64,000 nucleotides of DNA from Candidatus Woesearchaeota archaeon (GTDB lineage: Archaea; Nanobdellota; Nanobdellia; Woesearchaeales; JACPJR01): the NCBI GenBank assembly GCA_016187565.1, contig JACPJR010000031.1, forward strand, positions 9,796 to 73,795. Reading direction: 5' to 3'. Both the position numbers and the translations under genes were made by a program. The notes below the pieces were generated by a model. It did no database searches. It was not told the DNA's origin and saw only the letters and a list, made by a program, of their open reading frames with translations. Shown here one piece after another: positions 13,231 to 43,676 of this stretch (within the stretch, counting starts at the first letter, position 1; each line of letters opens with the position of its first letter).

Positions 13231-13256
13231 TTTGTCTTTTTCTCCTTTTTCTCTTA
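13231..13256 (+). terminator. T-rich tract between convergent genes (putative terminator)
   Basis: ttttgtctttttctcctttttctctt, downstream of the RecJ-like gene. Archaeal terminators are oligo-T tracts. Confidence 0.3.
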
Positions 13257-14201
13257 TAAGAATTTAATGTCTTGTGTGGTATTAAATCTATCAAACGTTT
13301 CCATTCCTTGCTCTAACTCTATTCCTCTTAATGCTTGCTGTTGGTCATGTTTTTCATCTTGCCAACCAATAAAAATTCTTGTGTCACTTCTTCGTGCGTC
13401 AATCTCTGCCTTCATTCTTCGTAATGCTTCTTTTGAATCTTCCAGACTTGCACGAGGATGATCTGGATATATAGCTCTACTTCTCTTCGATGGATAATAG
13501 GGATGAAAATTAAAATCTATGGGTGCTCCATATCTTTCTCCTAGATTCAAACCAGAACGGAGTGTTTCAACTGCTTCCCTTATTGCTTCTTCCCCAATTA
13601 ATTCTGGTGGTTGAAATACAATATTAACATCAATGCCCACGTTCCCTTTATATTCTCCTGCAACTTCAAAAGCCTTTTCAATTTTCTCTCTCTTCATTTT
13701 CTTATTAAGTTTTCCAATTCTCACTTCATCACTTTGAGATTCAACTCCTAAAATAACTCTTGCTTGTTGGTCTCCTCTTAATCTACCAACTAAATAATCC
13801 AATGAATCCTCAGTTACATACATCTCTCGTGAATCAAAAGATACAATGCTACATCGATTTAAAGATGAAGCATACGCTGCAATATTTTCCAATGTCATTC
13901 TTGACATTTCTGCTTTATTCAATGTTGAGCCTGAATTATACACTACCAAATGTTCTACATTCCTGAGAACATCACCATAATACTGTATGAAAAATTCTAG
14001 TCTCTTTTTGTTCATCTCAGTTGTAAATGGTGTTCCTTCTCCTGCTCCAATATCACAATGATAGCATTGCCTTGCTGTATAAAATGGGCATTCTCCACCT
14101 TTGAACTCATTGCCAAACACCAAAGCGAGCCGACTTCCATACGTATCTCTAACAGGATCAAACATGATCGATGCATCTGGAATCGCTGGGTTATCTGCCA
14201 T
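13254..14201 (-). CDS. Radical-SAM-like TIM-barrel protein with atypical Cys triad (C-x7-C-x2-C)
   Basis: GGECPFYTARQCYHCDIG near the N-terminus, an NSGS glycine-rich segment, and GVESQSDEVRIGKLNK, which resembles the GxES 'ribose' motif of MiaB/Elp3-like radical-SAM enzymes. The Cys spacing is not canonical, so the family call is tentative. It overlaps the upstream gene by 11 nt. Confidence 0.5.
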   Translation of the reverse strand: MADNPAIPDASIMFDPVRDTYGSRLALVFGNEFKGGECPFYTARQCYHCDIGAGEGTPFTTEMNKKRLEFFIQYYGDVLRNVEHLVVYNSGSTLNKAEMSRMTLENIAAYASSLNRCSIVSFDSREMYVTEDSLDYLVGRLRGDQQARVILGVESQSDEVRIGKLNKKMKREKIEKAFEVAGEYKGNVGIDVNIVFQPPELIGEEAIREAVETLRSGLNLGERYGAPIDFNFHPYYPSKRSRAIYPDHPRASLEDSKEALRRMKAEIDARRSDTRIFIGWQDEKHDQQQALRGIELEQGMETFDRFNTTQDIKFL

Positions 14202-15915
14202 TGTTCTCCTCCCTCGAGACTAAGAAATTGCCAATAGCAAGATAATCAATTCTCGTTTTGAGAAATGTACTAACAGCATCTTGCGGACTGCAAACTATTG
14301 GTTCTCTATCATTAAACGACGTATTCAGAATAAGAGGTACTCCTGTAAGAGCTTCAAATTCCTGTATGAGTTTGTAATATTTGGGATTTGTTCCTTCTCT
14401 AACCGTTTGAATTCTACTTGTTCCGTCAACATGAGTGACCGCAGAAATTACGCCTTTCTTCTCATCGTTTACACGGTAAGCAAAAAGCATAAAGTCAGAT
14501 GAAATTGACTTTTGAGGAATACTAAACCAATCATCAGCGTTATCTACTAATACCGACGGAGCAAATGGTCTGAAATATTCTCTATGTTTTACTTTCATGT
14601 TCAGAATATCTCTCATCTTAGGGTTGCGAGGATCAGCAAGAAGTGACCTGTTGCCCAATGCTCTTGGTCCAACTTCCATTCGTCCCTGAAACCATCCAAC
14701 AACATTACCATCTGCAACTAGCTTTGCGACTTCTTTTTCTATCTCTTCAACATGAACATACGTGAGCCTATTTTCGTCCAATGCCTGTCTGATCTCTTCT
14801 TGAGAATATTCTGGCCCAAAATAGGCATGGTCCATAACAAAACTTCTCGGATTTCCTAATTGATGATTCCAGATAAAATAAGCCGCTCCGATTGCAGTTC
14901 CTGCATCATGTGCTGCTGGTTGAATGTACACATCCTTAAATGGGCCTTTCTCGAGAAGAATGCTATTAGCAACACAATTGAGAGCAACTCCCCCAGCGAG
15001 ACATACGTTTGAGCTTCCGGTAGATTCGGAGAGATGATGAGCAAGTTTGAGCAGAATTTCTTCGGTGATTCTCTGTAATGCTGCTGCAATATCTGCGTGT
15101 CTTTCTTCTAATTCATCGTGGGGGTCTCTTTTACGTCCTAAAATTTGTTCTAAACCACTATGATCATTACCTCTAAATCTTACTACGGTGTGATCAACAG
15201 TAAAGCCTCTTGTACCAACGTTTACAAATTGTCTTAATGTATCATAATATCGGTTAGGGTCTCCATAGGAAGCCAATCCCATTACTTTACCGGCATCGTA
15301 TTCGGTAAACCCCAGAAATATTGAGAGTTTTTCCCACAAGAATCCTAAACTATGAGGGTAGTTAATACTCTTCAATAGCCTTATCTTGTTTCCTTCTCCT
15401 TTGGAGAGAGTTGTTGATTCAATTTCTCCAATACCATCAACTACTAAAATAGCTGCTTCTTCAAATGGAGAGACAAAATAAGCACTTCCTGCATGAGAGG
15501 TATGGTGGTCAATCCAGTGAAATCTTTCTCTCATGTCAAGCTCATAAATATCTGACAATTTTTGAGGTACTTGCCGAAGTTTCTCGTAAAAAAGAGATTC
15601 TCCCGTGTTACTGCCCCAATCTCCTTCAATAACCAGATCATGAAATTCTTTATTTCTTCCCTTATTTCTTAGCCTCTTTGCTGGACTAAAAGAACTGGCA
15701 ATGTAATCAACTTCTGCAAGAGTAATTCCTGCTTTTTCCAAGCAAAAATTGATGGTATTTATAGGAAGCTCATCAGGATTATCAATTTGTGCTGGTTTTG
15801 CGTGCTTTATCCTATTGAAACGTTCTTCTTCAGCTACCGCTACCATTGAGCCATCTTTAATCAGACATGCTGAAGATTCATGATAGGCATGGTTTATTCC
15901 AAGGAGGTATGTCAT
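14191..15915 (-). CDS. Carbamoyltransferase, NodU/CmcH/TobZ family (Kae1-like ASKHA N-domain + C-domain)
   Basis: N-terminus MTYLLGINHAYHESSACLIKDGSMVAVAEEERFNRIKH matches the family start (LGI..HDS.A.L..DG..VAA.EEERF.R.KH). 574 aa. Confidence 0.85.
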   Translation of the reverse strand: MTYLLGINHAYHESSACLIKDGSMVAVAEEERFNRIKHAKPAQIDNPDELPINTINFCLEKAGITLAEVDYIASSFSPAKRLRNKGRNKEFHDLVIEGDWGSNTGESLFYEKLRQVPQKLSDIYELDMRERFHWIDHHTSHAGSAYFVSPFEEAAILVVDGIGEIESTTLSKGEGNKIRLLKSINYPHSLGFLWEKLSIFLGFTEYDAGKVMGLASYGDPNRYYDTLRQFVNVGTRGFTVDHTVVRFRGNDHSGLEQILGRKRDPHDELEERHADIAAALQRITEEILLKLAHHLSESTGSSNVCLAGGVALNCVANSILLEKGPFKDVYIQPAAHDAGTAIGAAYFIWNHQLGNPRSFVMDHAYFGPEYSQEEIRQALDENRLTYVHVEEIEKEVAKLVADGNVVGWFQGRMEVGPRALGNRSLLADPRNPKMRDILNMKVKHREYFRPFAPSVLVDNADDWFSIPQKSISSDFMLFAYRVNDEKKGVISAVTHVDGTSRIQTVREGTNPKYYKLIQEFEALTGVPLILNTSFNDREPIVCSPQDAVSTFLKTRIDYLAIGNFLVSREENNGR

Positions 15916-16024
15916 GGTATCTAATTGACCACTTTATTGTAGTTACTATTGTGGAGGATTACTTAAAGTTTTGTCGCACTTTAAAGTACGAAAATTTATA
16001 TAGGATCAAGTTTTCCTATGAAGT

Positions 16025-16744
16025 ATGCATGAACAACAACTCAAAGAATTAGGGTTAACTGACAATGAAGTGAGGATTTACCTACTTTTGTTGGAGTATG
16101 GAATGACAAATCCCTCAGAAATTTCTCAAAAATTAGGATTACATAGGGGATATGTCTATGATGCACTTGAAAGAATGCAGGAAAAAGAGGTGGTTAATGT
16201 TCTTCTTAAAATGAACAAAAAATATTATCAAGCTACTAACCCTCAAAATCTTATTGAGCTGTTAAAATTCAGATTAGAAAGCCTTGAAAAAGCAGTGCCC
16301 GATTTAATGAAATTAGCAACATTGAAGAAAGAAGAAACAAAAGTAGAACTTCACCGAGGAAAGCGAATTTATAGAGTCCTCCTCAACGATATGGTTTCAA
16401 CGTTAAGGAAGAACGATAAAGCATATTTAGTAGGCATTGATGAAGATGTTTTAATGGAGGAAGTAGAGCCGATCTATCTTAAACAATATCTGAATACGAT
16501 GAAGTCTAGAAACATCAAAGAAAAAATAATTGTAAAAACTGGCGCTACAAAAATAAAAAATCCTCATCTTGAATACAAAGAACTGGATAGCAAATATATA
16601 GGAAAAACAGCACAGATAATATATAATGATAAAGTCGCTATTTTTATTCTAGGAACACCTTATTACCTTATTGTGATTGAGAATAAAGAAGTCGCCGAAA
16701 CTTATAGAAAACAGTTTAATCTTTTGTGGAACATAGCAAAATAA
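16025..16744 (+). CDS. TrmB-family transcriptional regulator
   Basis: N-terminal wHTH (LGLTDNEVRIYLLLLEYGMTNPSEISQKLGLHRGYVYDALERM) and a TrmB-like C-terminal domain. Confidence 0.7.
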   Translation: MHEQQLKELGLTDNEVRIYLLLLEYGMTNPSEISQKLGLHRGYVYDALERMQEKEVVNVLLKMNKKYYQATNPQNLIELLKFRLESLEKAVPDLMKLATLKKEETKVELHRGKRIYRVLLNDMVSTLRKNDKAYLVGIDEDVLMEEVEPIYLKQYLNTMKSRNIKEKIIVKTGATKIKNPHLEYKELDSKYIGKTAQIIYNDKVAIFILGTPYYLIVIENKEVAETYRKQFNLLWNIAK

Positions 16745-16840: not shown

Positions 16841-16881
16841 TATTACTAAAATGTAATAGTTCTATTATATAAAAGTAATAA
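16840..16881 (+). promoter_or_regulatory. Nested inverted repeats between TATA box and start codon (operator-like)
   Basis: TTATTACT (16840-16847) and AGTAATAA (16874-16881) form an 8-bp inverted repeat. An inner GTAATAG / CTATTAT pair sits at 16853-16868. Confidence 0.35.
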
Positions 16882-17489
16882 TGATCTCTCCTGAAAACTA
16901 CATGAATATGAACAACAACCTTAAAGTGTTAAAATTATTCGTTGATAATAAGGACAAAACATTTACGATAAAAAAAGTAGCTGAGTCCTTGAGAATGAAT
17001 TATAAAATAGTCTATGAAGAAATCATGAAATTAGCCCAAGAGGAGTTAATAAATATAACCAAACATGGGAATGCAAAGGTTTGTGTTTTTAATTACCGAT
17101 TTCATAGCAAAATTGTTGAAATTGAGGAAACGAAAAAGGAAGAATTATTCAAAAGCAAAAGCCTAAAATTAATCTACAAAAGAATCAAAGACGTAAAAAG
17201 TCCGTTCTATTGTTTAATTCTTTTTGGGTCCTATGCAAACAAAACTAATCAAAAAGGCTCAGATATTGATTTATGTTTAATAACTGATAATCAGCAAATA
17301 AGCAGGGACATAAATGCAATATTAAGCATAACTCCTATAAGCGTCCATTTGCAGGAATTTAATTCAGACCAGTTTCTAGCCATGCTAAAAAGCAAAGAAT
17401 TCAATGTTGGCAACGAAATTGTAAGAAACAATATAATTCTTTATGGGGTCGAAGCATTTTATGAGCTGGTAAACGATGTTAAACAATGA
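16881..17489 (+). CDS. wHTH + minimal nucleotidyltransferase (MNT) domain protein, HEPN/MNT-module antitoxin-like
   Basis: Pol-beta-type NTase motif LFGSYANKTNQKGSDIDLCLI (GS...D.D) with an N-terminal wHTH. Its end overlaps the start of a HEPN-like frame by 14 nt. Confidence 0.7.
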   Translation: MISPENYMNMNNNLKVLKLFVDNKDKTFTIKKVAESLRMNYKIVYEEIMKLAQEELINITKHGNAKVCVFNYRFHSKIVEIEETKKEELFKSKSLKLIYKRIKDVKSPFYCLILFGSYANKTNQKGSDIDLCLITDNQQISRDINAILSITPISVHLQEFNSDQFLAMLKSKEFNVGNEIVRNNIILYGVEAFYELVNDVKQ

Positions 17490-17559
17490 ACGAATAAAAG
17501 AAGCCGAAAAAAATGTTAAGTCCTATTTGTTGGATGGATTAATCAAAAAAGAGTATAGT

Positions 17560-17562
<3 letters not shown>
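17476..17562 (+). pseudogene. Possible remnant of a HEPN-domain gene (first ~28 codons only)
   Basis: MLNNERIKEAEKNVKSYLLDGLIKKE resembles HEPN N-termini. The frame then reads through antisense to gapdh, and no Rx4-6H motif is present. Confidence 0.2.
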
Positions 17563-18564
<1,002 letters not shown>

Positions 18565-18673: not shown

Positions 18674-19876
18674 TTAAAGTGAGATATGCCACTGGCGGCC
18701 ATAACTCAGATCATCTTCTCTGAGAGACCCTACCCGGCCATCCCCCATAGTCTCTTTGTTATGTTCATCACCAGGAAGAGGGGTGCCTTGAACCCGCATC
18801 TGATGACGGTACACTACCTCAAACCGTTCTACGAGCTCTTGTGGCTCAAATCTTGCAGGCTTTAGATCAAGATTAAAGAGATTGGGAGCTATGAACAGAA
18901 GAAAGGTCATTGTTTTGTGTAAATCACTCAGCTGTACCTTTTTCCTAGCTCGGTACAAGTTGTGCCACCCTTTGTCGGTAAACCCCTCAAGAGGAAAGAG
19001 TTTTGTACAGTATTCAATACGACAGTTTCCATATCCTCCTTCGCCGAGCTCAAATCGTACATCGAAGCTATCGTCTGCTGCATCATAGAGAATAAACCAA
19101 TAACCCATATGATAGCCGAGTTTACTGATCCACCAGAAACTTCGTTTGGTTATGAATCCACCTGCTACGCAATCGCGAGAAGATGCAATACCTCTATTGT
19201 AATGCTCAAATGCACGGACTATTGCGCCCATAGGACTCTTGAGAATTTCCTCAGGGACGGGTAATGTGTCTGGAGAAGAGATATGATGATGCCTACTGAG
19301 TTCATAGATACCATAACCCTCTGACAAACGCTCTGCCACTCTTCCAAAACTCCCTACTGCTTGTTCATGCATAACTCTCACATAATCTTCAAGCGTTGTG
19401 ATGGAAGATACCATAAGATGCGGACTACTGTCTGCAGCCAATATTCTTCGAAAAGAATCAAAGGGTTCTCGAATAAGAGGATGGATAAAGGGAGAATCAA
19501 CCGTACTCTGGGCCATCACCGGTTGATGATAGCCAAAGGTAAAGAGATAGTGAAGCTCTCGTGTAGCTTCTCCCAGTTTTCTCAGGAGATGAGTTTTTTT
19601 ACCTTTGAGTAGGGTTTTATTAACTTTAGGTATCTCTTCAAGATCATCAACATAATCAGTCAATGTAGTGATGGCATCCTCTAAAGCCTTGAACTGTTCG
19701 GGAAGTGCATCCTTTTGTCTATAGCTCTCTCCAACAAGGGCTCTACGAAAAACTGCTTCACCCAATACGCCCATCTCTTCTAAGGCGCGCCGATTGAGCC
19801 CATGGAAAGAGTCAACTTCCTGTTCTAAACCAATGCTTGGATCACTGGCCCCCAAAATCTTTGTGTAGATACTCAC
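18674..19876 (-). CDS. Hypothetical protein (400 aa, soluble, no recognisable motif; GC-richer than its surroundings)
   Basis: A long uninterrupted ORF with an oligo-T/TATA-like region upstream. I could not assign a family. Confidence 0.5.
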   Translation of the reverse strand: MSIYTKILGASDPSIGLEQEVDSFHGLNRRALEEMGVLGEAVFRRALVGESYRQKDALPEQFKALEDAITTLTDYVDDLEEIPKVNKTLLKGKKTHLLRKLGEATRELHYLFTFGYHQPVMAQSTVDSPFIHPLIREPFDSFRRILAADSSPHLMVSSITTLEDYVRVMHEQAVGSFGRVAERLSEGYGIYELSRHHHISSPDTLPVPEEILKSPMGAIVRAFEHYNRGIASSRDCVAGGFITKRSFWWISKLGYHMGYWFILYDAADDSFDVRFELGEGGYGNCRIEYCTKLFPLEGFTDKGWHNLYRARKKVQLSDLHKTMTFLLFIAPNLFNLDLKPARFEPQELVERFEVVYRHQMRVQGTPLPGDEHNKETMGDGRVGSLREDDLSYGRQWHISL

Positions 19877-29624: not shown

Positions 29625-31430
29625 TTGTCAATAGGGGTACATTTTATGAAAAAAGTCGTTGCCATTGTCCAAGCGCGTATGGGTGCTTCACGATTACCAG
29701 GAAAAGTCCTCATGCCTCTTTTAGGAAAACCTCTTCTTTTGCATATTCTGCAGCGGTTACAAACAGTAAAAAGACTTAATCATATTATTGTAGCAACAAC
29801 TACAAGCAATGAAGATAATGTTCTTGTGGAACATCTAGATTCTTGGAACATATCTTACTATCGTGGATCTGAAGATAATGTGCTTGATCGATTTATCAGA
29901 GCTGCAGAATCAACTCATGCAGATATTGTTGTAAGGATCTGTGCAGATAGCCCGCTTATTGAGCCAAACGAAATTGATAAAATGGTTGAAATAATCCTCG
30001 AAAAGAATGCTGATTATGTTATGGTTAAGTCAGGTGTCTTATGTATGCATGAAGGTTTTGAAGTAGTAACGCTAAAAGCACTTCGACACCAGCTTGATTT
30101 TTCTGATGGGAGTTATGTTAAAGAGCATGTTACTGCGTTTATTCGAGAACATCCTGAAAAGTTTGCTATTGCTTATTTTGTTCCTGAGCAAGAATATCAA
30201 CGTAAAGGATTTCGATTATCAATTGATACCATGCAGGATTTTCGATTTATGGAGCAGATTTATAAACGCCTCTACAATGAGGGAACCATTGTTGATCTCA
30301 AACAAGTTACGCAGCTTCTTGATCAACATCCAGAGATTCTTGTTATTAATAAGGAGGTAACACAGAAGGGATTACATGAGAAGAGTTTACGTATAGCTTT
30401 CAGAACCGATGGTGATTCCCAAATGGGCATGGGGCATGTCTTTCGCTGTTTGCATCTTGCAAGGACATTTCAAAACGCCTTTCATTTGGGTATTATTTTT
30501 TTAGTAAAAAAATCAACCGTTGCAAAAGAATTTATTCAGAAGCAAGGTTATCCTCTTATTTCCATTAGCGAGCACTTCAGTGAGGTAGAGGAGGTTGATT
30601 TCATTGCATCAATCTTGTTAGAAAAAAAAATAGATTGCCTTATTATTGACCAAAAGATACCACCATCACAACAATATTTTCGCTCGTTGAAAACAATTTC
30701 ACCTACCAAGCTTGTTGTTATGGATAAAATCACCAATTTTCCTGAGGTAAATGTAACCATCCTCCCGACAGCACATGTTGACCAGAAAAAAATTATTCCT
30801 GAATCTCAGGAAAGAACATTTTTTGGGATAGAATATGCTGTTTTTTCAGACGAACTTCTCAAGCGAAAAAAAACACATCTTAATCCAACGGTGAAGAATA
30901 TCCTTATTTCTATGGGGGGAAGTGATCCAAGCCGAATTACGCTTCGAATTCTTTCTTATTTGAGAAAGATGAAACAGGAAACTCCAGATCAGTTCAACCA
31001 ATTTGAATGGCATGTAGTGATTGGACCTGCATTTGACTTTATTCACGAAATAAAAACATTTATGAATGAAAACCAGTTACCCCTTAAAATCCATGAGGGG
31101 ATTACTGATTTATCTCCGTTGCTTGAACAAGCTGATCTGTGTGTTGTTTCGTTTGGTATTACACCTTATGAAGCACTTGCTGTTCGAGTTCCTGCGCTTG
31201 TCGTCAGTCATGATCAGCCAAACTATACAGATTCGCTGATTTTTGAAAAACTTAATACGTGCATTAATCTTGGATATTATGAAAACCTCACTTACGAGCG
31301 TTTCAACAAAGAGCTTTTTGAGATGATAGGTAATCGGGAGTTGCGGGAGCGAATATTTGAACGCGACAAAGACCTTATCAGAGGAAATGGGAAAGAAGCA
31401 ATTGCGAAACTTATACGAGGGATCTTATGA
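29625..31430 (+). CDS. pseF/pseG: Fusion: CMP-nonulosonate cytidylyltransferase (PseF-like) + UDP-2,4-diacetamido-2,4,6-trideoxy-altropyranose hydrolase (PseG-like GT28 fold)
   Basis: N-terminal KVVAIVQARMGASRLPGKVLMPL (CMP-NeuAc synthetase family). The C-terminal half has IAFRTDGDSQMGMGHVFRCLHLA and ISMGGSDPSRITLRIL, which are the PseG signature blocks. Confidence 0.75.
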   Translation: MSIGVHFMKKVVAIVQARMGASRLPGKVLMPLLGKPLLLHILQRLQTVKRLNHIIVATTTSNEDNVLVEHLDSWNISYYRGSEDNVLDRFIRAAESTHADIVVRICADSPLIEPNEIDKMVEIILEKNADYVMVKSGVLCMHEGFEVVTLKALRHQLDFSDGSYVKEHVTAFIREHPEKFAIAYFVPEQEYQRKGFRLSIDTMQDFRFMEQIYKRLYNEGTIVDLKQVTQLLDQHPEILVINKEVTQKGLHEKSLRIAFRTDGDSQMGMGHVFRCLHLARTFQNAFHLGIIFLVKKSTVAKEFIQKQGYPLISISEHFSEVEEVDFIASILLEKKIDCLIIDQKIPPSQQYFRSLKTISPTKLVVMDKITNFPEVNVTILPTAHVDQKKIIPESQERTFFGIEYAVFSDELLKRKKTHLNPTVKNILISMGGSDPSRITLRILSYLRKMKQETPDQFNQFEWHVVIGPAFDFIHEIKTFMNENQLPLKIHEGITDLSPLLEQADLCVVSFGITPYEALAVRVPALVVSHDQPNYTDSLIFEKLNTCINLGYYENLTYERFNKELFEMIGNRELRERIFERDKDLIRGNGKEAIAKLIRGIL

Positions 31431-32041: not shown

Positions 32042-33499
32042 ATGTCAAATAAAATCAATGTTATTGGACTAGATGGTGCAACTTTTTATCTCCTTGATAA
32101 GATTGTTGCTCGGGGATTAACACCAAACATCCATCGTATTATGACGCAAGGTTACAAAAATGTCTGTACTTCTATTTATCCGCCCCTTTCCCCTCCTGCA
32201 TGGGCGACTATTGCCACAGGGGTTAATCCTGCAAAGCATGGTGTCTTTGACTTTTTTTATATGCCTTTTCGGCGAGAAGGAAGTTATGCCCGGCGGATTG
32301 TGAACACGACACAGTGGAAAATAGACACGGTTTTTCACCACTTTAATAAAGCCGGTTATAGCTGTGGTGTTATTAATTATCCCATGGGTTACCCACCGTT
32401 AATCGTGAACAAGTATTTTATTTCTGGTCTTGGAACACCTGGGCTTGATACTGATTATACCTATCCTCTCGATCTCAAGAAAGAGATTGCTCAACAATTC
32501 CCTGATTATCTTATTGATGTTGGCGGTGGTATTGGCCAGACCTCAGAGGCTTTTTTGCAATCCTGCAGACAGATGATGCTCGAGCAAATAAAGGCAGCAA
32601 AATATCTTTTTGATAAGTATCCTGTTGATATGTTTTACGCTGTTTTTGCTTTTACTGATCGCTTTCAGCATTGGTTTTGGCAATTTATTGATCCTCAATC
32701 TCCCTCCTATGGAACATGGAAAAAACCCATTGAGGTCTATGAAGAATTTTTTAAAGAAGTAGATGCTTTTTTTGGTCTTCTCCTTGAAAGAATGCATGCT
32801 GATGATGTTCTTCTTGTTCTTTCAGATCATGGGTTTGGTCCTATCAAAAAATATTTTTACATCAACAAGTTCTTGTATGAGGCAGGGCTTCTTCATTTTC
32901 TTCCCGAAGCAAAAATATTCCACCAAAAAAATACCCCTGACGGGTTACTCACTTCTATTGATTGGACAAAAACCGTTGCTTATTCATTAGGTGATTATGG
33001 TGAGATCCGTATTAATCTTAAAGGCCGTGAACCAAAGGGCATTGTTCAGCCTGGAGAGGAGTATCACCGCCTCCGTCTGTTTATCAAAAATATTTTGGAA
33101 AATGTCGTAGACCCAGAAGACGGCAAAAAAATAACTGATACCGTCTTTTTGAAAGAAGAGGTTTATAACGGGCCAATGCTTCATGAGGCTCCTGATCTTC
33201 TCTTTACTTTGCGACATTGTTCATATTTGTGTTACATTAATGGGAGAGGAAATGAATTTTATAATTACGATAAGGTTCTTTTCAGACCACCAAGCAAAAA
33301 CGAAATGGAGCAGTGGACAGGAGGCCATACCCTTGACGGCATTTTTATGGCATATGGTAAAACCGTAAACAAGGATGCTGTTATTCCAAAAATAACCCTC
33401 TATGATATCCCGGCAACGCTTCTCTTCCTCAAGGGAATACCTCTGCCGCAATCACTTGATGGAAAGGCTCTACAGGAATTATTTATTAATCATCCTTGA
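32042..33499 (+). CDS. Alkaline-phosphatase superfamily protein (type I phosphodiesterase/nucleotide pyrophosphatase family)
   Basis: VIGLDGATFYLLD...GLTPNI...SIYPPLSPPAWATIATGVNPAKHGVFDF is the family N-terminal metal-site block. 485 aa. Confidence 0.65.
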   Translation: MSNKINVIGLDGATFYLLDKIVARGLTPNIHRIMTQGYKNVCTSIYPPLSPPAWATIATGVNPAKHGVFDFFYMPFRREGSYARRIVNTTQWKIDTVFHHFNKAGYSCGVINYPMGYPPLIVNKYFISGLGTPGLDTDYTYPLDLKKEIAQQFPDYLIDVGGGIGQTSEAFLQSCRQMMLEQIKAAKYLFDKYPVDMFYAVFAFTDRFQHWFWQFIDPQSPSYGTWKKPIEVYEEFFKEVDAFFGLLLERMHADDVLLVLSDHGFGPIKKYFYINKFLYEAGLLHFLPEAKIFHQKNTPDGLLTSIDWTKTVAYSLGDYGEIRINLKGREPKGIVQPGEEYHRLRLFIKNILENVVDPEDGKKITDTVFLKEEVYNGPMLHEAPDLLFTLRHCSYLCYINGRGNEFYNYDKVLFRPPSKNEMEQWTGGHTLDGIFMAYGKTVNKDAVIPKITLYDIPATLLFLKGIPLPQSLDGKALQELFINHP

Positions 33500-38122: not shown

Positions 38123-40030
38123 ATGGACGTAACAACGATTAAAAATCTCTATCTGAAAGCAGTAGGCATTCGAGAAGATGTCCTCCATATGCTGAAGTTT
38201 GCAGGGAGTGGTCATCTTGGTGGATCTTTTTCTGCGGCCGAATTATTGAGTGTTTTATATTTCCATGAACTAAAACTTGATCCCAAACATCCAAATTGGG
38301 AAGAACGAGACCGTTTTGTGCTTTCAAAAGGGCACTGTTGTCCTGGATTGTATGCCGTACTTGCTGAAAGAGGCTTTTTCTCAAAAGAAGAATTTAAAAT
38401 GCTAAGAAAGGTCAATGGAAATTTACAGGGCCATCCTGAGCGCATTACTCCAGGAGTTGAATTTATTGCAGGATTCTTGGGACAAGGGCTTTCTGCTGGT
38501 TTAGGTATGGCATTAGGCTTTAAGCGGATGAAAAAAAACAATAGGATTTATGTTATGATCGGAGATGGAGATAATCAAGAAGGCCAGACGTGGGAAGCAG
38601 CACGCTTTGGTGTCCACAATAAACTGGATAATCTCGTAGCAATATATGATTATAACAATCTCCAGAGCGATGACCGAACAGAAAACATCCTCACGATTAA
38701 AGATCCTGAAAAGCAATGGACCAGTTTTGGATGGCATGCTATTGTTATTGACGGGCATCATGTTGAGCAGATTGTGCGTGCGTTGACAGAAGCTAAGACC
38801 ATCAAACAGAAACCAACGATTATTATTGCCCACACCCTCAAGGGAAATGGGGTTTCCTTCTATGCTGATAATCCTAACTCTCATGGAAGCTGGGCACCGT
38901 CAGATAGTGATTACAAAAATGCCCTTGCAGAGCTCCAAGAAACACGTAATAGACTGGTGAGAGAGGAATTTCCTCTTGCTCGTAGAGAATTGACGTTTTT
39001 CAATCCACAAATTGATGTTCGTTCGAGTAAAGATAATTGTTCGACAGATCAACAGGGAGAAGCATTTGAGCCCTATGTTTTTAAGAAAGAGGAGAAGTAC
39101 AGCTTACGAAATGCATTTGGTATGGCTGCCGCAAACCTTGCCAAGAAGTACGATAACTTTGATCTTTTTGATGGCGATGTTCGTGGTGGAACCATGACTT
39201 GTATTTTTGAAAAACATTTTCCCCATCGTTTTATCCAATGTGGCATTGCTGAACAAAACATGATGAGTGTAGCTGCAGGATATCATCTGGCAACAGAGAG
39301 AATTCCTATTGTTACTACCTATGCTGCGTTTACCTCGCTACTCACTGCAGCACAGTTTAGAAATAACATTGCCATGCAGAAACTTCCGGTCATAGTTGCA
39401 TCGAGCCACAACGGAACAGATACTGGACCAGATGGACCTACGCATCAGGCAATTGAGGATTTAGGTGTCTTTCGAACCTATCCTGGGGTTGTTGTTATTT
39501 CTGCTGCTTGTCCGTATCAGATTCACGGCTTGTTAGAGGCAGCACTCTTAGGCAAGAAGCCAGTCTACATGCGAACAGGAAGAAGCCCTACCCCTGTCTT
39601 GTACGGTCCGTCTGAACATTTTAGCATTGGTAAGGATACAGTACTGAGAAAAGGGACTGACATCACGTTTTTTGCAACAGGCCTTCTCGTTAAACGAGCC
39701 CTTGATGCAGCAGAACAATTGAGCAGTGAGGGCATTGATGCTGAGGTTATTAATATCGCCACGCTTAACCCCCTTGATACTCAATTGATTTTACAATCAG
39801 TCAGGAAAACTAAGCGTGCACTTGTTGCCGAGGATCATTATCTTCACAATGGATTAGGCGGAGCAATAAGCCAGTTTTTGGGAGAACAATTTCCCGTGCC
39901 CCTAAGATATATTGCTCTCCGAACCTATGCTGAATCAGGAGATCCTCAGGAATTGGCAGCAAAGTATCACCTTACATCAAATGATATTTTTTTAACCGCT
40001 CAAGAAATGATTCGAGGTGATTTACATTAA
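38123..40030 (+). CDS. tkt: Transketolase, fused N-terminal (TPP-binding) and C-terminal (pyrimidine-binding) sections
   Basis: The N-part (GSGHLGGSFSAAELLSVLYF...RDRFVLSKGH...IGDGDNQEGQTWEA) matches split-type TK N subunits. The C-part (FGMAAANLAKKYDNFDLFDGDV...CGIAEQNMMSVAAG) matches TK C subunits. A ~100-aa linker joins them. Confidence 0.85.
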   Translation: MDVTTIKNLYLKAVGIREDVLHMLKFAGSGHLGGSFSAAELLSVLYFHELKLDPKHPNWEERDRFVLSKGHCCPGLYAVLAERGFFSKEEFKMLRKVNGNLQGHPERITPGVEFIAGFLGQGLSAGLGMALGFKRMKKNNRIYVMIGDGDNQEGQTWEAARFGVHNKLDNLVAIYDYNNLQSDDRTENILTIKDPEKQWTSFGWHAIVIDGHHVEQIVRALTEAKTIKQKPTIIIAHTLKGNGVSFYADNPNSHGSWAPSDSDYKNALAELQETRNRLVREEFPLARRELTFFNPQIDVRSSKDNCSTDQQGEAFEPYVFKKEEKYSLRNAFGMAAANLAKKYDNFDLFDGDVRGGTMTCIFEKHFPHRFIQCGIAEQNMMSVAAGYHLATERIPIVTTYAAFTSLLTAAQFRNNIAMQKLPVIVASSHNGTDTGPDGPTHQAIEDLGVFRTYPGVVVISAACPYQIHGLLEAALLGKKPVYMRTGRSPTPVLYGPSEHFSIGKDTVLRKGTDITFFATGLLVKRALDAAEQLSSEGIDAEVINIATLNPLDTQLILQSVRKTKRALVAEDHYLHNGLGGAISQFLGEQFPVPLRYIALRTYAESGDPQELAAKYHLTSNDIFLTAQEMIRGDLH

Positions 40031-42726: not shown

Positions 42727-43676
42727 GAACAGCATTTATTGGTGCGCTTATTGGCGGATATGATGCACTCAAAGCTTTGCTTGATAATGGGATTACTATT
42801 GATCTTGTTTTTACGCTTGATGAACATTATGCCGAAAATGTGAGCTGCTTTCAGTTATTTGATCCGCTCTTTAAGCAATACAATGTTCCATACTCTAAAA
42901 TAAAGGATATCAATGATCCAGAAAATATTTTGCGACTAAAAAATCTTAAACCAGATTTAATGATTGTTAATTGCTGGTCGCAACTTCTTACCAAGGAAAT
43001 TTTGGACATTCCTAGCATAGGAGTCCTTGGCATGCATCCTACCTTATTGCCAAAACATCGGGGACGAGCTCCAATTCCCTGGGCCCTTATCCACGGCCTT
43101 GATAAAACTGGTGTTACCTGGTTTTTTTATAATGAGAAACCAGATGCAGGTGATATTGTTGCGCAGCGTGAAATACCCATCACCTTTCAAGACACGGCGA
43201 TGTCCCTGGGCAAAAAGGTTGATACGGTTGCTATCGAACTTCTTATTGAGGCAGTAAAAAGCATCCAACAAGGCATCTACAAAAGAATTCCTCAGGATCA
43301 TACCCAGGCAACCTATTGGAAGCGAAGAAGACCAGAGGATGGTATTATTGACTGGAACAAAACAAATCTTGCATTGTATAATTGGGTACGAGCGTTGACA
43401 AGACCATATCCTGGAGCATTCACGTATCATAACGGAAAAAAACTCTTCGTGTGGAAAGCATCTCTTCCCTTAAAGGATTTAGCAGAGGTATCATTCACCA
43501 CAGAGGATGTCCGTACATCAGGTACTATTATGAATGTTGACCCTGATGGAATTACGGTAAGTACAGGACAAGGGAATCTTATCCTTGAAGAAGTCCAATA
43601 TGAAGATGAACCAGTTCTTAATTTAGCTCTTGCGACACTACACTTTCAAATAGGTGAGGTACTTGGTAATGTCTGA
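42723..43676 (+). CDS. Formyltransferase (Fmt/ArnA-N-like, N10-formyl-THF-dependent), probable sugar N-formyltransferase
   Basis: Formyl_trans_N catalytic block NCWSQLL...GVLGMHPTLLPKHRGRAPIPWALIHG...TGVT (HxSLLPxxRG motif) and a C-terminal Formyl_trans_C-like beta domain. It overlaps the LmbE stop (ATGA). Confidence 0.8.
   Translation: MRTAFIGALIGGYDALKALLDNGITIDLVFTLDEHYAENVSCFQLFDPLFKQYNVPYSKIKDINDPENILRLKNLKPDLMIVNCWSQLLTKEILDIPSIGVLGMHPTLLPKHRGRAPIPWALIHGLDKTGVTWFFYNEKPDAGDIVAQREIPITFQDTAMSLGKKVDTVAIELLIEAVKSIQQGIYKRIPQDHTQATYWKRRRPEDGIIDWNKTNLALYNWVRALTRPYPGAFTYHNGKKLFVWKASLPLKDLAEVSFTTEDVRTSGTIMNVDPDGITVSTGQGNLILEEVQYEDEPVLNLALATLHFQIGEVLGNV

What the first reader, a model, noticed from the sequence alone, without database searches (positions are those of the whole stretch)
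13254..15915. Overlapping operon: NodU/CmcH-type carbamoyltransferase + radical-SAM-like protein with non-canonical C-x7-C-x2-C
The carbamoyltransferase (TobZ/NodU family, Kae1-like fold that forms carbamoyl-adenylate) overlaps by 11 nt a 315-aa protein that has a radical-SAM-like GxES motif but an unusual Cys spacing (CPFYTARQCYHC). The pair sits among information-processing genes (RecJ-like, rpiB, ZPR1), not in the glycan island. I know of no characterised system combining these two enzyme types. Candidate roles include modification of a nucleoside, RNA or small molecule, for example carbamoylation coupled to radical chemistry.
Basis: partly seen in the sequence, partly recalled or inferred. 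Interest (0 to 1): 0.65.

Follow-up and report, generated by a model that had tools for sequence, protein, structure and literature searches.

The report
Carbamoyltransferase coupled to RaSEA-like radical SAM
Two overlapping genes in a Woesearchaeota genome encode a carbamoyl-adding enzyme and a small iron-sulfur radical enzyme that are neighbours or fused into one protein in many unrelated microbes, so they almost certainly work together in a reaction that has not been described.

Summary
ORFs 14191-15915(-) (574 aa) and 13254-14201(-) (315 aa, "X315") overlap by 11 nt, with a GGAGG ribosome-binding site for X315 inside the end of the first gene.

The 574-aa protein is an intact TobZ/NovN/GdmN-type carbamoyltransferase (CT). 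X315 matches no Pfam family. It models confidently (pLDDT 95) as a radical-SAM barrel and is a full-length remote homologue of RaSEA, the archaeosine radical-SAM enzyme. It scores far below the RaSEA family threshold. The long Cys spacing is a trait of this clade, not an oddity.

The pairing is real. CT lies directly upstream in 47 of 56 informative genomes across about ten phyla. The two are fused into one polypeptide in nine genome loci. Close CT relatives are also fused to a RaSEA domain that scores above the RaSEA family threshold.

The best reading is a two-part enzyme like ArcS-RaSEA, with a carbamoyltransferase as the partner. Substrate and product are unknown. No paper, defence-system model, riboswitch or conserved third gene explains it. 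This is a new variant of a known kind and can be tested by co-expression.

The parts
14191..15915 (-). Carbamoyltransferase (CT), 574 aa: Kae1-like N-terminal domain plus YrdC-like C-terminal domain, NodU/CmcH/TobZ family
   Evidence: Pfam Carbam_trans_N 1e-59 and Carbam_trans_C 7e-71. Full-length PDB matches to NovN 3e-95, TobZ 1e-94 and GdmN 4e-92.
15493..15507 (-). HHTSH (aa 137-141), the HxxxH metal-binding motif of the Kae1-like domain. VVDGIGE (aa 158-164, nt 15424-15444) supplies the Asp.
   Evidence: Aligned to HHLAH and VMDGAGE of NovN. Coordinates. The metal-ligand role is from published TobZ/Kae1 structures (my knowledge).
14644..14685 (-). GRMEVGPRALGNRS (aa 411-424), signature of the YrdC-like carbamoyl-adenylate-forming domain
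   Evidence: Conserved against NovN GRSEFGPRALGNRS. Coordinates.
13254..14201 (-). X315, 315 aa: single-cluster radical-SAM protein of the RaSEA/queuine-lyase clade. No Pfam model matches it.
   Evidence: No significant Pfam hit. TIGR01210 52.7 bits. AF2 pLDDT 95.3. Foldseek to Elp3, queuine lyase, MiaB, DesII and LipA. hhalign 98.9% to a RaSEA-like protein.
14055..14090 (-). CPFYTARQCYHC: C38-x7-C46-x2-C49, the predicted [4Fe-4S] ligands in the loop after beta-1
   Evidence: The three Cys are invariant in 64 sequences. Spacing is x5-x7 across the family. The loop lies between strand 22-28 and helix 61-75.
13926..13937 (-). NSGS (aa 89-92), the counterpart of the GGE-type SAM-binding motif
   Evidence: N89, S90 and G91 are invariant. 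Aligns to INSGSFF of SAM-bound queuine lyase 6p78 and to the FNSGSFF of the RaSEA domain in P0386.
13734..13748 (-). GVESQ (aa 152-156), start of the conserved GxE..D..R...LNK block
   Evidence: G152, E154, R161 and K167 are invariant. Aligned to GIETFNDEMRNNVLNK of 6p78.
13848..13859 (-). NRCS containing C117, a fourth, family-specific near-invariant Cys outside the cluster motif
   Evidence: At least 90% conserved. Aligned to Ile in RaSEA-like P0186. X315 has only 4 Cys, so an auxiliary cluster is excluded. A role as H-atom donor is inference.
14191..14212 (-). Gene junction: GGAGG (14212-14208), X315 ATG (14201-14199), CT stop TAA (14193-14191). An 11-nt overlap, consistent with translational coupling.
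   Evidence: Sequence read. The same 11-nt overlap is seen in L077, L078 and L073.
15916..16024 (.). 109-nt divergent intergenic region between CT and the TrmB regulator. It holds AT-rich TATA-like elements (e.g. TATATAAA).
   Evidence: Sequence. Promoter function is not tested.
16025..16744 (+). TrmB-family transcription regulator, divergent from the operon, and its probable regulator
   Evidence: Pfam TrmB. 71% identical TrmB genes lie divergent from a RaSEA-like paralogue (P0162) in L079-L081, and a TrmB lies divergent from PRMT-CT-X315 in L077.

Best explanation
The two genes encode the two halves of one bipartite enzyme.

**Shown.** The 574-aa protein is a complete TobZ-type carbamoyltransferase. 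X315 is a one-cluster radical-SAM protein, homologous over its full length to RaSEA and queuine lyase. The two are co-inherited, translationally coupled and repeatedly fused.

**Inferred.** The CT's YrdC-like domain makes carbamoyl-AMP from carbamoyl phosphate and ATP. Its Kae1-like domain transfers the carbamoyl group to an -OH or -NH2 of a substrate. X315, bound to the CT as RaSEA is bound to ArcS, reductively cleaves SAM on its C38/C46/C49 [4Fe-4S] cluster. It uses the 5'-deoxyadenosyl radical to abstract a hydrogen next to a heteroatom on the same substrate. The result is a C-N (or C-O) bond scission or rearrangement of the kind RaSEA and queuine lyase perform.

The order of the two steps is unresolved: either the carbamoyl is installed and the product is then processed, or an amine is unmasked and then capped. 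I favour a small nitrogen-rich substrate (amine, amidine, guanidine or ureido compound, possibly a 7-deazaguanine-type base) over a tRNA, because both proteins are acidic and most carriers are bacteria. The divergent TrmB gene probably regulates the operon.
For: **Coupling**
- CT lies directly upstream on the same strand in 47 of 56 informative genome loci, with gaps of -42 to +256 nt. These span Woesearchaeota, Cyanobacteria, Verrucomicrobiota, Planctomycetota, Myxococcota, Eremiobacterota, Rifleibacteriota and others. It is also upstream in L001, L002, L073 and L077.
- Single-ORF CT-X315 fusions of 869-1001 aa occur in nine loci. Independent database proteins P0129, P0132 and P0133 show the same architecture.
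- CT and X315 identities to the window proteins co-vary across 41 loci (Pearson r = 0.76).
- An SD-like sequence for X315 sits inside the 3' end of the CT gene.
- The same CT clade (56-57% identity) is fused to a TIGR01210 RaSEA domain scoring 254 and 253 bits against a cutoff of 212 in P0386 and P0367. The CT-RaSEA-type partnership therefore arose in more than one form.

**X315 as a radical-SAM enzyme**
- Model quality, fold neighbours and motif alignments support it.
- More distant relatives hit Pfam Radical_SAM.

**CT intact**
- Both signature motifs are conserved against NovN.

**Precedent**
- RaSEA forms a complex with ArcS, ArcS is active only in that complex, and RaSEA then processes the group ArcS installs (PMC11298593, read).

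**Substrate lean**
- pI is 5.4 for X315 and 5.8 for CT, with family medians near 6.0. RaSEA-type proteins are at 9.1-9.5.
- Other partners are N-directed or guanidino-directed enzymes: a PRMT-like gene in operon in L005, L006 and L077; an NPPF methyltransferase fused to an X315-like domain in P0135; and a DDAH/arginine-dihydrolase-like domain fused to the CT in P0373.
- An EamA exporter lies downstream in Xenococcus.
Against: - No substrate, product or activity is known. Every chemical step is inferred by homology at 20-35% identity.
- Carbamoyl groups have no C-H bond, so the ArcS-RaSEA "install then trim" logic does not transfer literally.
- The pair is not obligate. X315 stands alone in nine genome loci, including five Acidobacteriota, and in L075. 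CTs 57-60% identical to the window CT occur without X315.
- The PRMT-like link is facultative: seven close PRMT-like homologues have no CT or X315 nearby.
- The GME and methyltransferase fusions are single examples on short contigs.
- pI is a weak discriminator and is confounded by proteome composition.
- I could not inspect model coordinates, so convergence of the three Cys on one site is inferred from topology, not measured.
Confidence: 0.55

Rival explanations
1. An ArcS-independent pathway for archaeosine or another 7-deazaguanine modification. The CT replaces ArcS as the partner of a RaSEA-type enzyme and acts on preQ0, preQ1 or G+ in tRNA or DNA. The outcome would be a fourth route to the G+ amidine, or a new carbamoyl-7-deazaguanine.
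For: - The only two characterised relatives, RaSEA and queuine lyase, both act on N-substituted 7-deazaguanine side chains (PMC11298593).
- CT::TIGR01210 fusions pass the RaSEA equivalog cutoff. They sit in a DPANN-like archaeal contig among housekeeping genes, and both of their domains are basic (pI 9.3-9.5).
- Methyl and formyl capping of the dPreQ1 amine is known in phages (title and abstract of PMC10516641, listed).
Against: - X315 itself scores 52.7 bits against the 212 cutoff.
- Most X315 carriers are bacteria. To my knowledge archaeosine is not found in bacterial tRNA.
- Both proteins are acidic.
- No TGT or Que genes were found among the window ORFs that were annotated or scanned.
- The family is absent from phages, viral contigs and plasmids.
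- There is no evident chemistry by which a carbamoyl donor converts a nitrile to an amidine.
Confidence: 0.15
2. X315 serves the donor side. It radically cleaves a ureido or guanidino compound (for example at the delta carbon of citrulline or arginine, a direct analogue of RaSEA cleaving the lysine C-epsilon-N bond). This would supply or recycle the carbamoyl or nitrogen unit used by the CT in organisms with poor carbamoyl-phosphate supply.
For: - In P0373 a DDAH/arginine-dihydrolase-like domain (arginine to citrulline-type chemistry) occupies the position after the CT that X315 occupies in the CT-X315 fusions.
- PRMT-like arginine-directed methyltransferases lie in the same operon in three archaeal lineages.
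- The RaSEA reaction type is known (PMC11298593).
Against: - Urea or cyanate released this way is not an activated carbamoyl donor.
- The CT retains the standard carbamoyl-phosphate/ATP signature.
- There is only one GME fusion example.
- The PRMT link is facultative.
Confidence: 0.1
3. The genes are ordinary tailoring enzymes of a natural-product pathway, as with TobZ plus AprD4 in aminoglycoside clusters or PolO plus PolH in polyoxin. They have become detached from a larger gene cluster.
For: - The best-characterised CT homologues are antibiotic O-carbamoyltransferases.
- Structural neighbours of X315 include AprD4 and DesII.
- Carriers include Myxococcota, Cyanobacteria and Planctomycetota.
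- EamA and MatE transporters lie nearby in cyanobacteria.
Against: - No third gene cluster is shared across the 64 loci. Only lineage-specific synteny and a heterogeneous ABC-transporter cluster were found.
- In DPANN genomes the pair sits among AlaRS, Cbf5, ZPR1, SepF and RpiB.
- No PKS, NRPS or sugar-pathway core lies adjacent in the annotated contexts.
Confidence: 0.1
4. A two-gene anti-phage or conflict system that makes a modified nucleotide, analogous to prokaryotic viperins.
For: - The family is rare and phylogenetically patchy: 64 loci in 185,579 species genomes and about 49 clusters at 50% identity.
- It is a self-contained cassette.
- Viperin is among the fold matches.
- Some loci lie near ParE, HNH, Bro-N, reverse transcriptase or SMC-like ATPase genes.
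Against: - Neither protein matches a PADLOC model.
- Defence-island context is not consistent.
- The family is not found on plasmids, phages or viral contigs.
- In the window it sits among housekeeping genes under a TrmB-type regulator.
Confidence: 0.06
5. The adjacency is coincidental, or X315 is not a radical enzyme and its Cys motif binds a structural metal. The two proteins would then have unrelated functions.
For: - X315 has no Pfam Radical_SAM hit.
- Solo copies of each gene exist.
Against: - Synteny holds in 84% of informative loci across about ten phyla.
- Fusions occur in at least two phyla.
- The two proteins' identities co-vary (r = 0.76).
- The genes overlap and carry an internal ribosome-binding site.
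- X315 has a radical-SAM fold and conserved SAM-region motifs.
Confidence: 0.04

Closest known systems
ArcS-RaSEA complex (archaeosine synthesis in Euryarchaeota; RaSEA = TIGR01210)
   Same: - X315 is a full-length homologue of RaSEA-type proteins (hhalign 98.9%, E 1.7e-17).
- It has the same size of about 310 aa and a single domain.
- It shares the extended Cys spacer, the NSGS-type motif, the GxES..D..R..L.K block and the C-terminal FxGxxDE...FNxxQD motif.
- Like RaSEA, it is tied to a group-installing partner enzyme (PMC11298593).
- The same CT clade is fused to a TIGR01210-threshold-passing RaSEA domain in P0386 and P0367.
   Different: - The partner is a carbamoyltransferase, not the TGT/PUA-type lysine transferase ArcS.
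- X315 scores 52.7 bits against a cutoff of 212 and shares about 23% identity.
- Carriers are mostly bacterial.
- The proteins are acidic rather than basic.
- X315 has an extra conserved Cys117 and lacks the C-terminal Cys-rich tail seen in the RaSEA domain of P0386.
Queuine lyase (PDB 6p78, Clostridium spiroforme)
   Same: It is the only solved structure detectable by sequence profile (E 5e-4). The NSGS and GIE..D..R...LNK motifs align. It is a top Foldseek hit with TM 0.51/0.66. It is a small single-domain radical-SAM enzyme, solved bound to SAM and queuine.
   Different: Queuine lyase is 251 aa and X315 is 315 aa. The alignment covers only residues 65-189. Queuine lyase has no carbamoyltransferase partner and a different taxonomic range.
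Elp3 radical-SAM domain (tRNA U34 cm5U synthesis)
   Same: It is the best structural match: 8asw_C E 1.2e-6 with TMq 0.58, and D. mccartyi Elp3 with TMq 0.55. Elp3 is likewise a radical-SAM domain physically joined to a group-donating domain (a GNAT that binds acetyl-CoA).
   Different: X315 has no KAT/GNAT domain. Only about 10-16% identity is seen in the structural alignment. TIGR01211 (Elp3) does not hit X315.
TobZ / NovN / GdmN / NodU / CmcH O-carbamoyltransferases
   Same: The CT aligns over its full length (E 1e-92 to 3e-95). It has the Kae1-like HxxxH...D metal site and the YrdC-like GRxExGPRALGNRS motif.
   Different: Those enzymes act alone on antibiotic or Nod-factor hydroxyls inside large biosynthetic clusters. 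This CT belongs to a separate, highly conserved clade (55-85% identity between archaea and bacteria). Members of that clade are paired or fused with RaSEA-type radical-SAM proteins. The CT scores 170 bits against 1000 for the NodU equivalog.
TsaD/Kae1 followed by MtaB (t6A to ms2t6A), and HypF-HypE
   Same: Both are pathways in which a Kae1/YrdC-type carbamoyl-transfer enzyme is followed by a second enzyme that acts on the carbamoylated product. MtaB is a radical-SAM enzyme and appears among the fold matches.
   Different: X315 lacks the UPF0004 and TRAM domains and the second cluster of methylthiotransferases. HypE is not a radical-SAM protein. To my knowledge neither pair is fused or operon-locked in this way.

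Membership tests
Radical SAM superfamily (X315) | Three-Cys motif (CX3CX2C or a variant) in the loop after beta-1 that ligates a [4Fe-4S] cluster | tested here: met
   C38-x7-C46-x2-C49 is invariant in 64 sequences. The motif lies between strand 22-28 and helix 61-75 of the model. The spacer is x5-7 in the family and x3-x10 in the wider clade.
Radical SAM superfamily (X315) | Partial or full (beta/alpha) TIM-barrel core | tested here: met
   AF2 pLDDT 95.3, pTM 0.92, with alternating beta/alpha elements. The 32 Foldseek PDB hits with E <= 1e-3 are almost all radical-SAM enzymes.
Radical SAM superfamily (X315) | SAM-binding motifs (GGE-like motif, ribose/beta-4 motif) | tested here: inconclusive
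   NSGS and GxE..D..R...LNK are invariant and align to the same motifs in SAM-bound queuine lyase 6p78. I could not inspect coordinates to confirm the contacts.
Radical SAM superfamily (X315) | Significant match to Pfam PF04055 | tested here: not met
   X315 has no PF04055 hit, and none was precomputed for 120 homologues. More distant relatives found with the family profile do hit PF04055, so the link is transitive.
Radical SAM superfamily (X315) | [4Fe-4S]-dependent reductive cleavage of SAM to 5'-deoxyadenosine | not testable with these tools
   This needs anaerobic biochemistry.
RaSEA (NCBIfam TIGR01210 equivalog) | Score at or above the curated cutoff of 212.15 bits | tested here: not met
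   X315 scores 52.7 bits, matched over aa 35-218 only. The fused domains of P0386 and P0367 score 254 and 253 bits.
RaSEA (NCBIfam TIGR01210 equivalog) | Functional partner is ArcS, and the organism makes tRNA archaeosine | tested here: not met
   The partner is a carbamoyltransferase in 47 of 56 loci. Most carriers are bacteria. No TGT or ArcS was seen among the annotated or scanned window genes. Whole genomes were not available.
RaSEA-like clade (broader, undefined family) | Full-length homology to RaSEA-type proteins, including the C-terminal FxGxxDE...FNxxQD region | tested here: met
   hhalign gives 98.9% probability, E 1.7e-17, over 282 aligned columns. The nearest out-family relatives all have TIGR01210 as their best NCBIfam hit.
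NodU/CmcH/TobZ carbamoyltransferase family (574-aa protein) | Both Pfam domains (Carbam_trans_N and Carbam_trans_C) above gathering score | tested here: met
   203.1 bits against a cutoff of 24, and 237.7 bits against 27.
NodU/CmcH/TobZ carbamoyltransferase family (574-aa protein) | Kae1-like metal site (HxxxH plus Asp) and the YrdC-like adenylation signature | tested here: met
   HHTSH (137-141), VVDGIGE (158-164) and GRMEVGPRALGNRS (411-424) align to the same motifs in NovN.
NodU equivalog (NF041651) | Score at or above 1000 bits | tested here: not met
   170.4 bits. The protein is a family member but not a NodU orthologue.
Known anti-phage defence systems (PADLOC 2.0) | Match to any defence-protein model | tested here: not met
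   Neither protein matches any model at E <= 0.1.

The most novel reading that the evidence does not exclude
TobZ-type carbamoyltransferases joined to RaSEA-type radical-SAM proteins form an unrecognised class of two-part nucleobase-modifying enzymes. The joining takes three forms: overlapping genes, CT-X315 fusions and CT::TIGR01210 fusions. In DPANN archaea they would provide an ArcS-independent route to archaeosine, or make a new carbamoyl-7-deazaguanine (or other carbamoylated base) in tRNA or DNA. The bacterial copies would do the same on DNA or on salvaged bases.
Probability: 0.15. Interest if true: 0.85.

Novelty: new variant of a known kind. Interest (0 to 1): 0.68.

Why it matters
X315 defines a protein family that no Pfam model matches and that falls far below the only NCBIfam model it touches. 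All 120 listed homologues lack a precomputed Pfam domain, and source names are "hypothetical protein" apart from a few inconsistent automatic labels. Genomic evidence for its functional partnership is unusually strong: conserved synteny across domains of life, and gene fusions of two kinds.

The only characterised relatives, RaSEA and queuine lyase, carry out rare radical C-N bond cleavages on 7-deazaguanines. RaSEA is also the textbook case of a radical-SAM enzyme that works only in complex with the enzyme that installs its substrate group. A version of that arrangement built around a carbamoyl-AMP-forming transferase implies chemistry not yet described.

The system is small: two genes, or one fused gene. 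It is soluble and self-contained, so co-expression with metabolite and nucleoside profiling is a direct test. Its retention in very small DPANN genomes suggests a function that matters to those cells.

Tried and rejected
- **Defence system.** No PADLOC hit for either protein.
- **Mobile or viral origin.** X315 has no PHROG hit. It has no relatives in IMG/VR viral contigs, GenBank phages or PLSDB plasmids. Phage "Nol-like" CTs are only 33-35% identical, so they belong to a different clade.
- **Riboswitch as a ligand clue.** An Rfam gathering-threshold scan of 35 bacterial loci found nothing near the operon. The only hits were a tRNA, a group II intron fragment and an Acido-Lenti-1 sRNA elsewhere in the loci.
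- **Conserved third gene.** All-against-all clustering of neighbours in 64 loci found only lineage-specific synteny and a heterogeneous ABC-transporter cluster. That cluster includes an OmpA-tailed substrate-binding protein in L013, L043, L046, L053 and L066, at varying distance and orientation. My naive ORF caller produced spurious antisense ORFs in high-GC loci (for example "cluster 9"), so those calls were discarded.
- **PRMT-like gene as an obligate third component.** Rejected. Seven close homologues (54-61% identity) have no CT or X315 nearby.
- **The alternative partner in L008.** P0388 (248 aa, 4-nt overlap with X315) is an orphan. It has only sub-threshold GNAT-fold hints (E about 0.09), and its single-sequence AF2 model is unusable (pLDDT 35).
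- **Literature.** Searches combining carbamoyltransferase, NodU or CmcH with radical SAM, TIGR01210 or archaeosine, and queuine lyase with radical SAM, found no paper on this pair.
- **Window survey.** No TGT, Que or ArcS gene was found among the annotated or scanned ORFs.

Full report
**1.

The window contains ORF 14191..15915(-) of 574 aa and ORF 13254..14201(-) of 315 aa, here called X315. They overlap by 11 nt. The junction reads GGGAGGAGAACAATGGCAGATAA, so a GGAGG lies 6 nt upstream of the X315 ATG, inside the last codons of the upstream gene. This is the classic layout for translational coupling.

X315 carries CPFYTARQCYHC (C38-x7-C46-x2-C49) and LGVESQ. The exact protein is on record as hypothetical protein HYW21_07830 of a Candidatus Woesearchaeota archaeon.

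Public gene calls start the upstream gene at Met24, giving 551 aa. The 23 residues they omit contain the conserved LGINxxxHESSA N-terminus, which aligns to NovN.

**2. The 574-aa protein is a complete carbamoyltransferase (CT)**

- It hits Pfam Carbam_trans_N (1e-59) and Carbam_trans_C (7e-71).
- It aligns end to end with solved O-carbamoyltransferases: NovN (3e-95), TobZ (1e-94) and GdmN (4e-92).
- The Kae1-like metal motif HHTSH...VVDGIGE and the YrdC-like GRMEVGPRALGNRS signature are conserved.
- It is not a NodU orthologue: 170 bits against a cutoff of 1000.
- The wider family is very large, with at least 8000 proteins at E < 1e-30. The 120 best hits are 54-85% identical and come from both archaea and bacteria, which points to a tightly conserved clade.

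**3. X315 is a radical-SAM protein of the RaSEA clade**

- No Pfam family reaches significance for X315, and none is precomputed for its 120 closest homologues.
- The only NCBIfam hit is TIGR01210, the archaeosine radical-SAM protein RaSEA. It scores 52.7 bits against a cutoff of 212.
- An AlphaFold2 model built on 64 homologues is very confident (pLDDT 95.3, pTM 0.92). It shows alternating strands and helices, with the three Cys in the loop between beta-1 (residues 22-28) and the first long helix (61-75).
- Foldseek against the PDB returns radical-SAM enzymes: Elp3, queuine lyase, TsrM, MiaB/RimO, DesII, Mmp10, AprD4, MqnE and LipA. Probability is 1.00 and query TM-scores are 0.4-0.58.
- A family profile detects queuine lyase 6p78 by sequence (E 5e-4). 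X315's invariant NSGS and GxE..D..R...LNK blocks align to the same blocks of that SAM-bound enzyme.
- Profile comparison with P0186, a near-threshold RaSEA-like protein (209.7 bits), gives 98.9% probability and E 1.7e-17 over 282 columns, including the C-terminal FxGxxDE...FNxxQD region.

The first Cys spacer is x5-x7 within the family. It is x10 in P0186, x9 in P0162 and P0367, and x3 in other clade members. The long spacing is therefore a variable trait of this clade rather than an anomaly.

X315 has only four Cys, so an auxiliary cluster is excluded. The fourth, C117, is at least 90% conserved and specific to this family.

I could not read model coordinates. Convergence of the Cys triad is therefore inferred from topology, not measured.

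**4. The family is small, rare and spread across domains**

- An exhaustive profile search of 1.84 billion cluster representatives finds 49 clusters at E < 1e-30. Beyond that, hits shade into generic radical-SAM proteins.
- A scan of one genome for each of 185,579 species finds 64 loci. They come from Woesearchaeota, Micrarchaeota, Cyanobacteria (two copies in Xenococcus PCC 7305), Verrucomicrobiota, Planctomycetota, Myxococcota, Acidobacteriota, Eremiobacterota, Rifleibacteriota, Actinomycetota and others.
- No copy is found in viral contigs, phage genomes or plasmids.

**5. The pairing is the main result**

- Of 59 strong X315 loci, three lie at contig edges.
- In 47 of the remaining 56 (84%), the CT lies immediately upstream on the same strand, with estimated gaps of -42 to +256 nt.
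- The same arrangement is seen with independent gene calls in an uncultured flagellated bacterium, in Xenococcus and in metagenomic contigs. An identical 11-nt overlap occurs in L073, L077 and L078.
- In nine loci (six Myxococcales, one Polyangia, two Pseudomonadota-labelled MAGs and one Planctomycetota), the two are one ORF of 869-1001 aa.
- The database proteins P0129, P0132 and P0133 show the same architecture. For P0129, the Pfam CT domains are followed by an X315 profile match at residues 577-870.
- Identities of CT and X315 to the window proteins co-vary across 41 loci (r = 0.76), as expected if the two are inherited as a unit.

**6. The CT clade pairs with RaSEA-type enzymes more than once**

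P0386 and P0367 are about 908 aa. They carry a CT 56-57% identical to the window's, fused to a radical-SAM domain that scores 254 and 253 bits on TIGR01210. That is above the RaSEA equivalog cutoff. P0367 lies in a DPANN-like archaeal contig among SerRS, diphthamide synthase and FtsZ.

This carbamoyltransferase clade is therefore joined to RaSEA-superfamily proteins in three configurations: overlapping genes, fusion to X315, and fusion to a TIGR01210-threshold-passing RaSEA domain.

**7. The pair is not obligate, and other partners occur**

- X315 stands alone in nine genome loci, including five Acidobacteriota where the upstream gene is a divergent PspA-like gene, and in L075.
- One Terriglobia locus keeps only a CT C-terminal remnant upstream.
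- CTs 57-60% identical occur without X315.
- A PRMT-like methyltransferase with a PRMT5_C domain, and by my reading of its sequence a PRMT double-E loop (...SEILGNLGDNEDM...), lies directly upstream of CT-X315 in L005, L006/L088 and L077/L078. Seven close PRMT-like homologues have no CT or X315 nearby, so this link is facultative.
- P0135 fuses an NPPF-motif HemK/MTS-type methyltransferase to an X315-like domain.
- P0373 fuses the CT (54% identity) to a DDAH/arginine-dihydrolase-like domain ending in a GGAINC motif.
- In L008 an orphan 248-aa protein overlaps the X315 start by 4 nt.
- In Xenococcus an EamA transporter follows X315.

These companions are mostly enzymes directed at amino, amide or guanidino nitrogens. 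I treat that as a lead to the substrate class, not as proof.

**8. Local context**

Around the window pair are a DHH/RecJ-like protein, RpiB, ZPR1, SepF, an alpha/beta hydrolase, AlaRS and Cbf5 on one side. On the other are a TrmB regulator, an NTP_transf_2 protein and GAPDH. None of these recurs in bacterial loci.

The TrmB gene (16025-16744) is divergent from the operon across 109 nt. It is 71% identical to TrmB genes that sit divergent from P0162, a RaSEA-like paralogue 28% identical to X315, in three groundwater and sediment contigs. A TrmB is also divergent from PRMT-CT-X315 in L077. This suggests regulated rather than constitutive expression.

No TGT or Que gene was found among the window ORFs that were annotated or scanned. 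Positions 20-63 kb are a glycan-synthesis island.

**9. How it most likely works**

Established knowledge:
- TobZ-type enzymes make carbamoyl-AMP in the YrdC-like domain and transfer the carbamoyl group in the Kae1-like domain.
- RaSEA forms a complex with ArcS, ArcS is active only in that complex, and RaSEA then converts the ArcS product preQ0-lysine to archaeosine (PMC11298593).
- By my knowledge of the published queuine-salvage work, queuine lyase cleaves queuine to preQ1. The PDB entry confirms only that it was solved bound to SAM and queuine.

Inference: CT and X315 form one enzyme that acts twice on the same molecule. One step is a carbamoyl transfer. The other is a 5'-deoxyadenosyl-radical-initiated scission or rearrangement next to a heteroatom.

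The order of steps is open. A carbamoyl group has no C-H bond, so a literal "install then trim" scheme would require hydrogen abstraction on the acceptor carbon. An "unmask an amine, then cap it" scheme fits the alternative methyltransferase partners equally well.

Both window proteins and their families are acidic (pI 5.4 and 5.8, medians about 6.0). The RaSEA-type proteins examined are basic at 9.1-9.5. That is weak evidence for a small-molecule rather than an RNA substrate for the X315 type. The basic CT::RaSEA fusions may well act on tRNA.

**10. Rivals**

The rivals considered are:
- an ArcS-independent archaeosine or 7-deazaguanine pathway;
- X315 serving the donor side by cleaving a ureido or guanidino compound;
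- detached natural-product tailoring enzymes;
- a defence cassette;
- coincidental adjacency.

Each is weighed in its own section. None is excluded except coincidence, which the fusions and the synteny make very unlikely.

**11. Novelty**

Literature searches found no paper describing a carbamoyltransferase and radical-SAM pair of this kind. PADLOC has no model for either protein. Database names for X315 homologues are "hypothetical protein" or inconsistent automatic labels.

Both superfamilies and the "installer plus RaSEA" arrangement are known. The carbamoyltransferase partner, the separate X315 family and the fused forms are not. I therefore rate it a new variant of a known kind, with function unknown. 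It is well supported as a real and testable system.

Noticed in passing
window 16025-16744 (+); L079 4179-4901, L080, L081, L077 3377-4114: The TrmB-family regulator divergent from the CT-X315 operon is 71% identical to TrmB genes that sit divergent from a different RaSEA-like paralogue (P0162, 28% identical to X315, C-x9-C-x2-C) in other archaeal contigs. The TrmB-radical-SAM arrangement is thus conserved while the radical-SAM gene differs.
   Followed up: partly
P0386 (908 aa), P0367 (909 aa); L086/L087 8001-10730: These are carbamoyltransferases 56-57% identical to the window's, fused to a radical-SAM domain that passes the TIGR01210 RaSEA equivalog cutoff (254 and 253 bits against 212). 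They lie in a DPANN-like archaeal contig among housekeeping genes. This is a possible ArcS-independent RaSEA partner.
   Followed up: partly
P0373 (862 aa, 3.3-kb contig): This is a carbamoyltransferase (54% identical to the window's) fused to a DDAH/arginine-dihydrolase-like guanidino-modifying domain with a C-terminal GGAINC motif. Only one example was found.
   Followed up: partly
P0135 / L068 474-2210: An NPPF-motif HemK/MTS-type methyltransferase is fused N-terminally to an X315-like radical-SAM domain (C-x6-C-x2-C). It is a second kind of partner for this radical-SAM family.
   Followed up: partly
L005 1015-2160, L006 3168-4286, L077 4185-5276, L078: A PRMT-like methyltransferase (PRMT5_C domain, double-E loop) lies directly upstream of CT-X315 in three archaeal lineages. 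It is absent from the window. Close homologues elsewhere lack CT or X315 neighbours.
   Followed up: yes
window 15847-15915 (-): Public gene calls (P0268, 551 aa) start the carbamoyltransferase at Met24 and cut off the conserved N-terminal LGINHAYHESSA motif. The 574-aa start at 15915 fits the family better.
   Followed up: yes
L055 2581-2736: A Terriglobia locus keeps only a short carbamoyltransferase C-terminal remnant (aa 516-567, 44% identity) just upstream of an intact X315 homologue. Related Acidobacteriota have X315 alone next to a divergent PspA-like gene. The CT may have been lost in this lineage.
   Followed up: no
L013 8368-11832, L043 1096-4989, L046 1-3864, L053 188-3802, L066 2068-5357: An ABC transporter whose substrate-binding protein has an OmpA-like C-terminal domain recurs within a few kb of X315 homologues in four phyla. 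Distance and orientation vary, and the significance is unclear.
   Followed up: partly
window 16881-17489 (+): A 202-aa NTP_transf_2/Pol-beta-type nucleotidyltransferase lies next to TrmB. The overlapping downstream ORF 17476-17748 may be a HEPN-like partner or may be spurious, because it overlaps GAPDH on the opposite strand.
   Followed up: no
window 18674-19876 (-) and 59039-61012 (+): Two sizeable ORFs (400 aa and 657 aa) have no Pfam match.
   Followed up: no
window about 20000-63000: This is a large glycan-synthesis island. It includes a CMP-sugar cytidylyltransferase (29625-31430), a phosphodiesterase (32042-33499), GH57 (43654-45696), a Polysacc_synt flippase (45701-47170), an epimerase/glycerophosphotransferase-like gene (47136-49052), a Wzy-like gene (49693-51096) and a PMT-type glycosyltransferase (51112-53163, -). 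A transketolase (38123-40030) is embedded in it. It is not linked to the CT-X315 pair in other genomes.
   Followed up: partly
L008 5252-5998: In a marine Woesearchaeota MAG, an orphan 248-aa protein (P0388) overlaps the X315 start by 4 nt in place of the carbamoyltransferase. It has no homologues among 5.8 billion clusters. The only hints are sub-threshold GNAT-fold matches, and the AF2 single-sequence model failed (pLDDT 35).
   Followed up: yes
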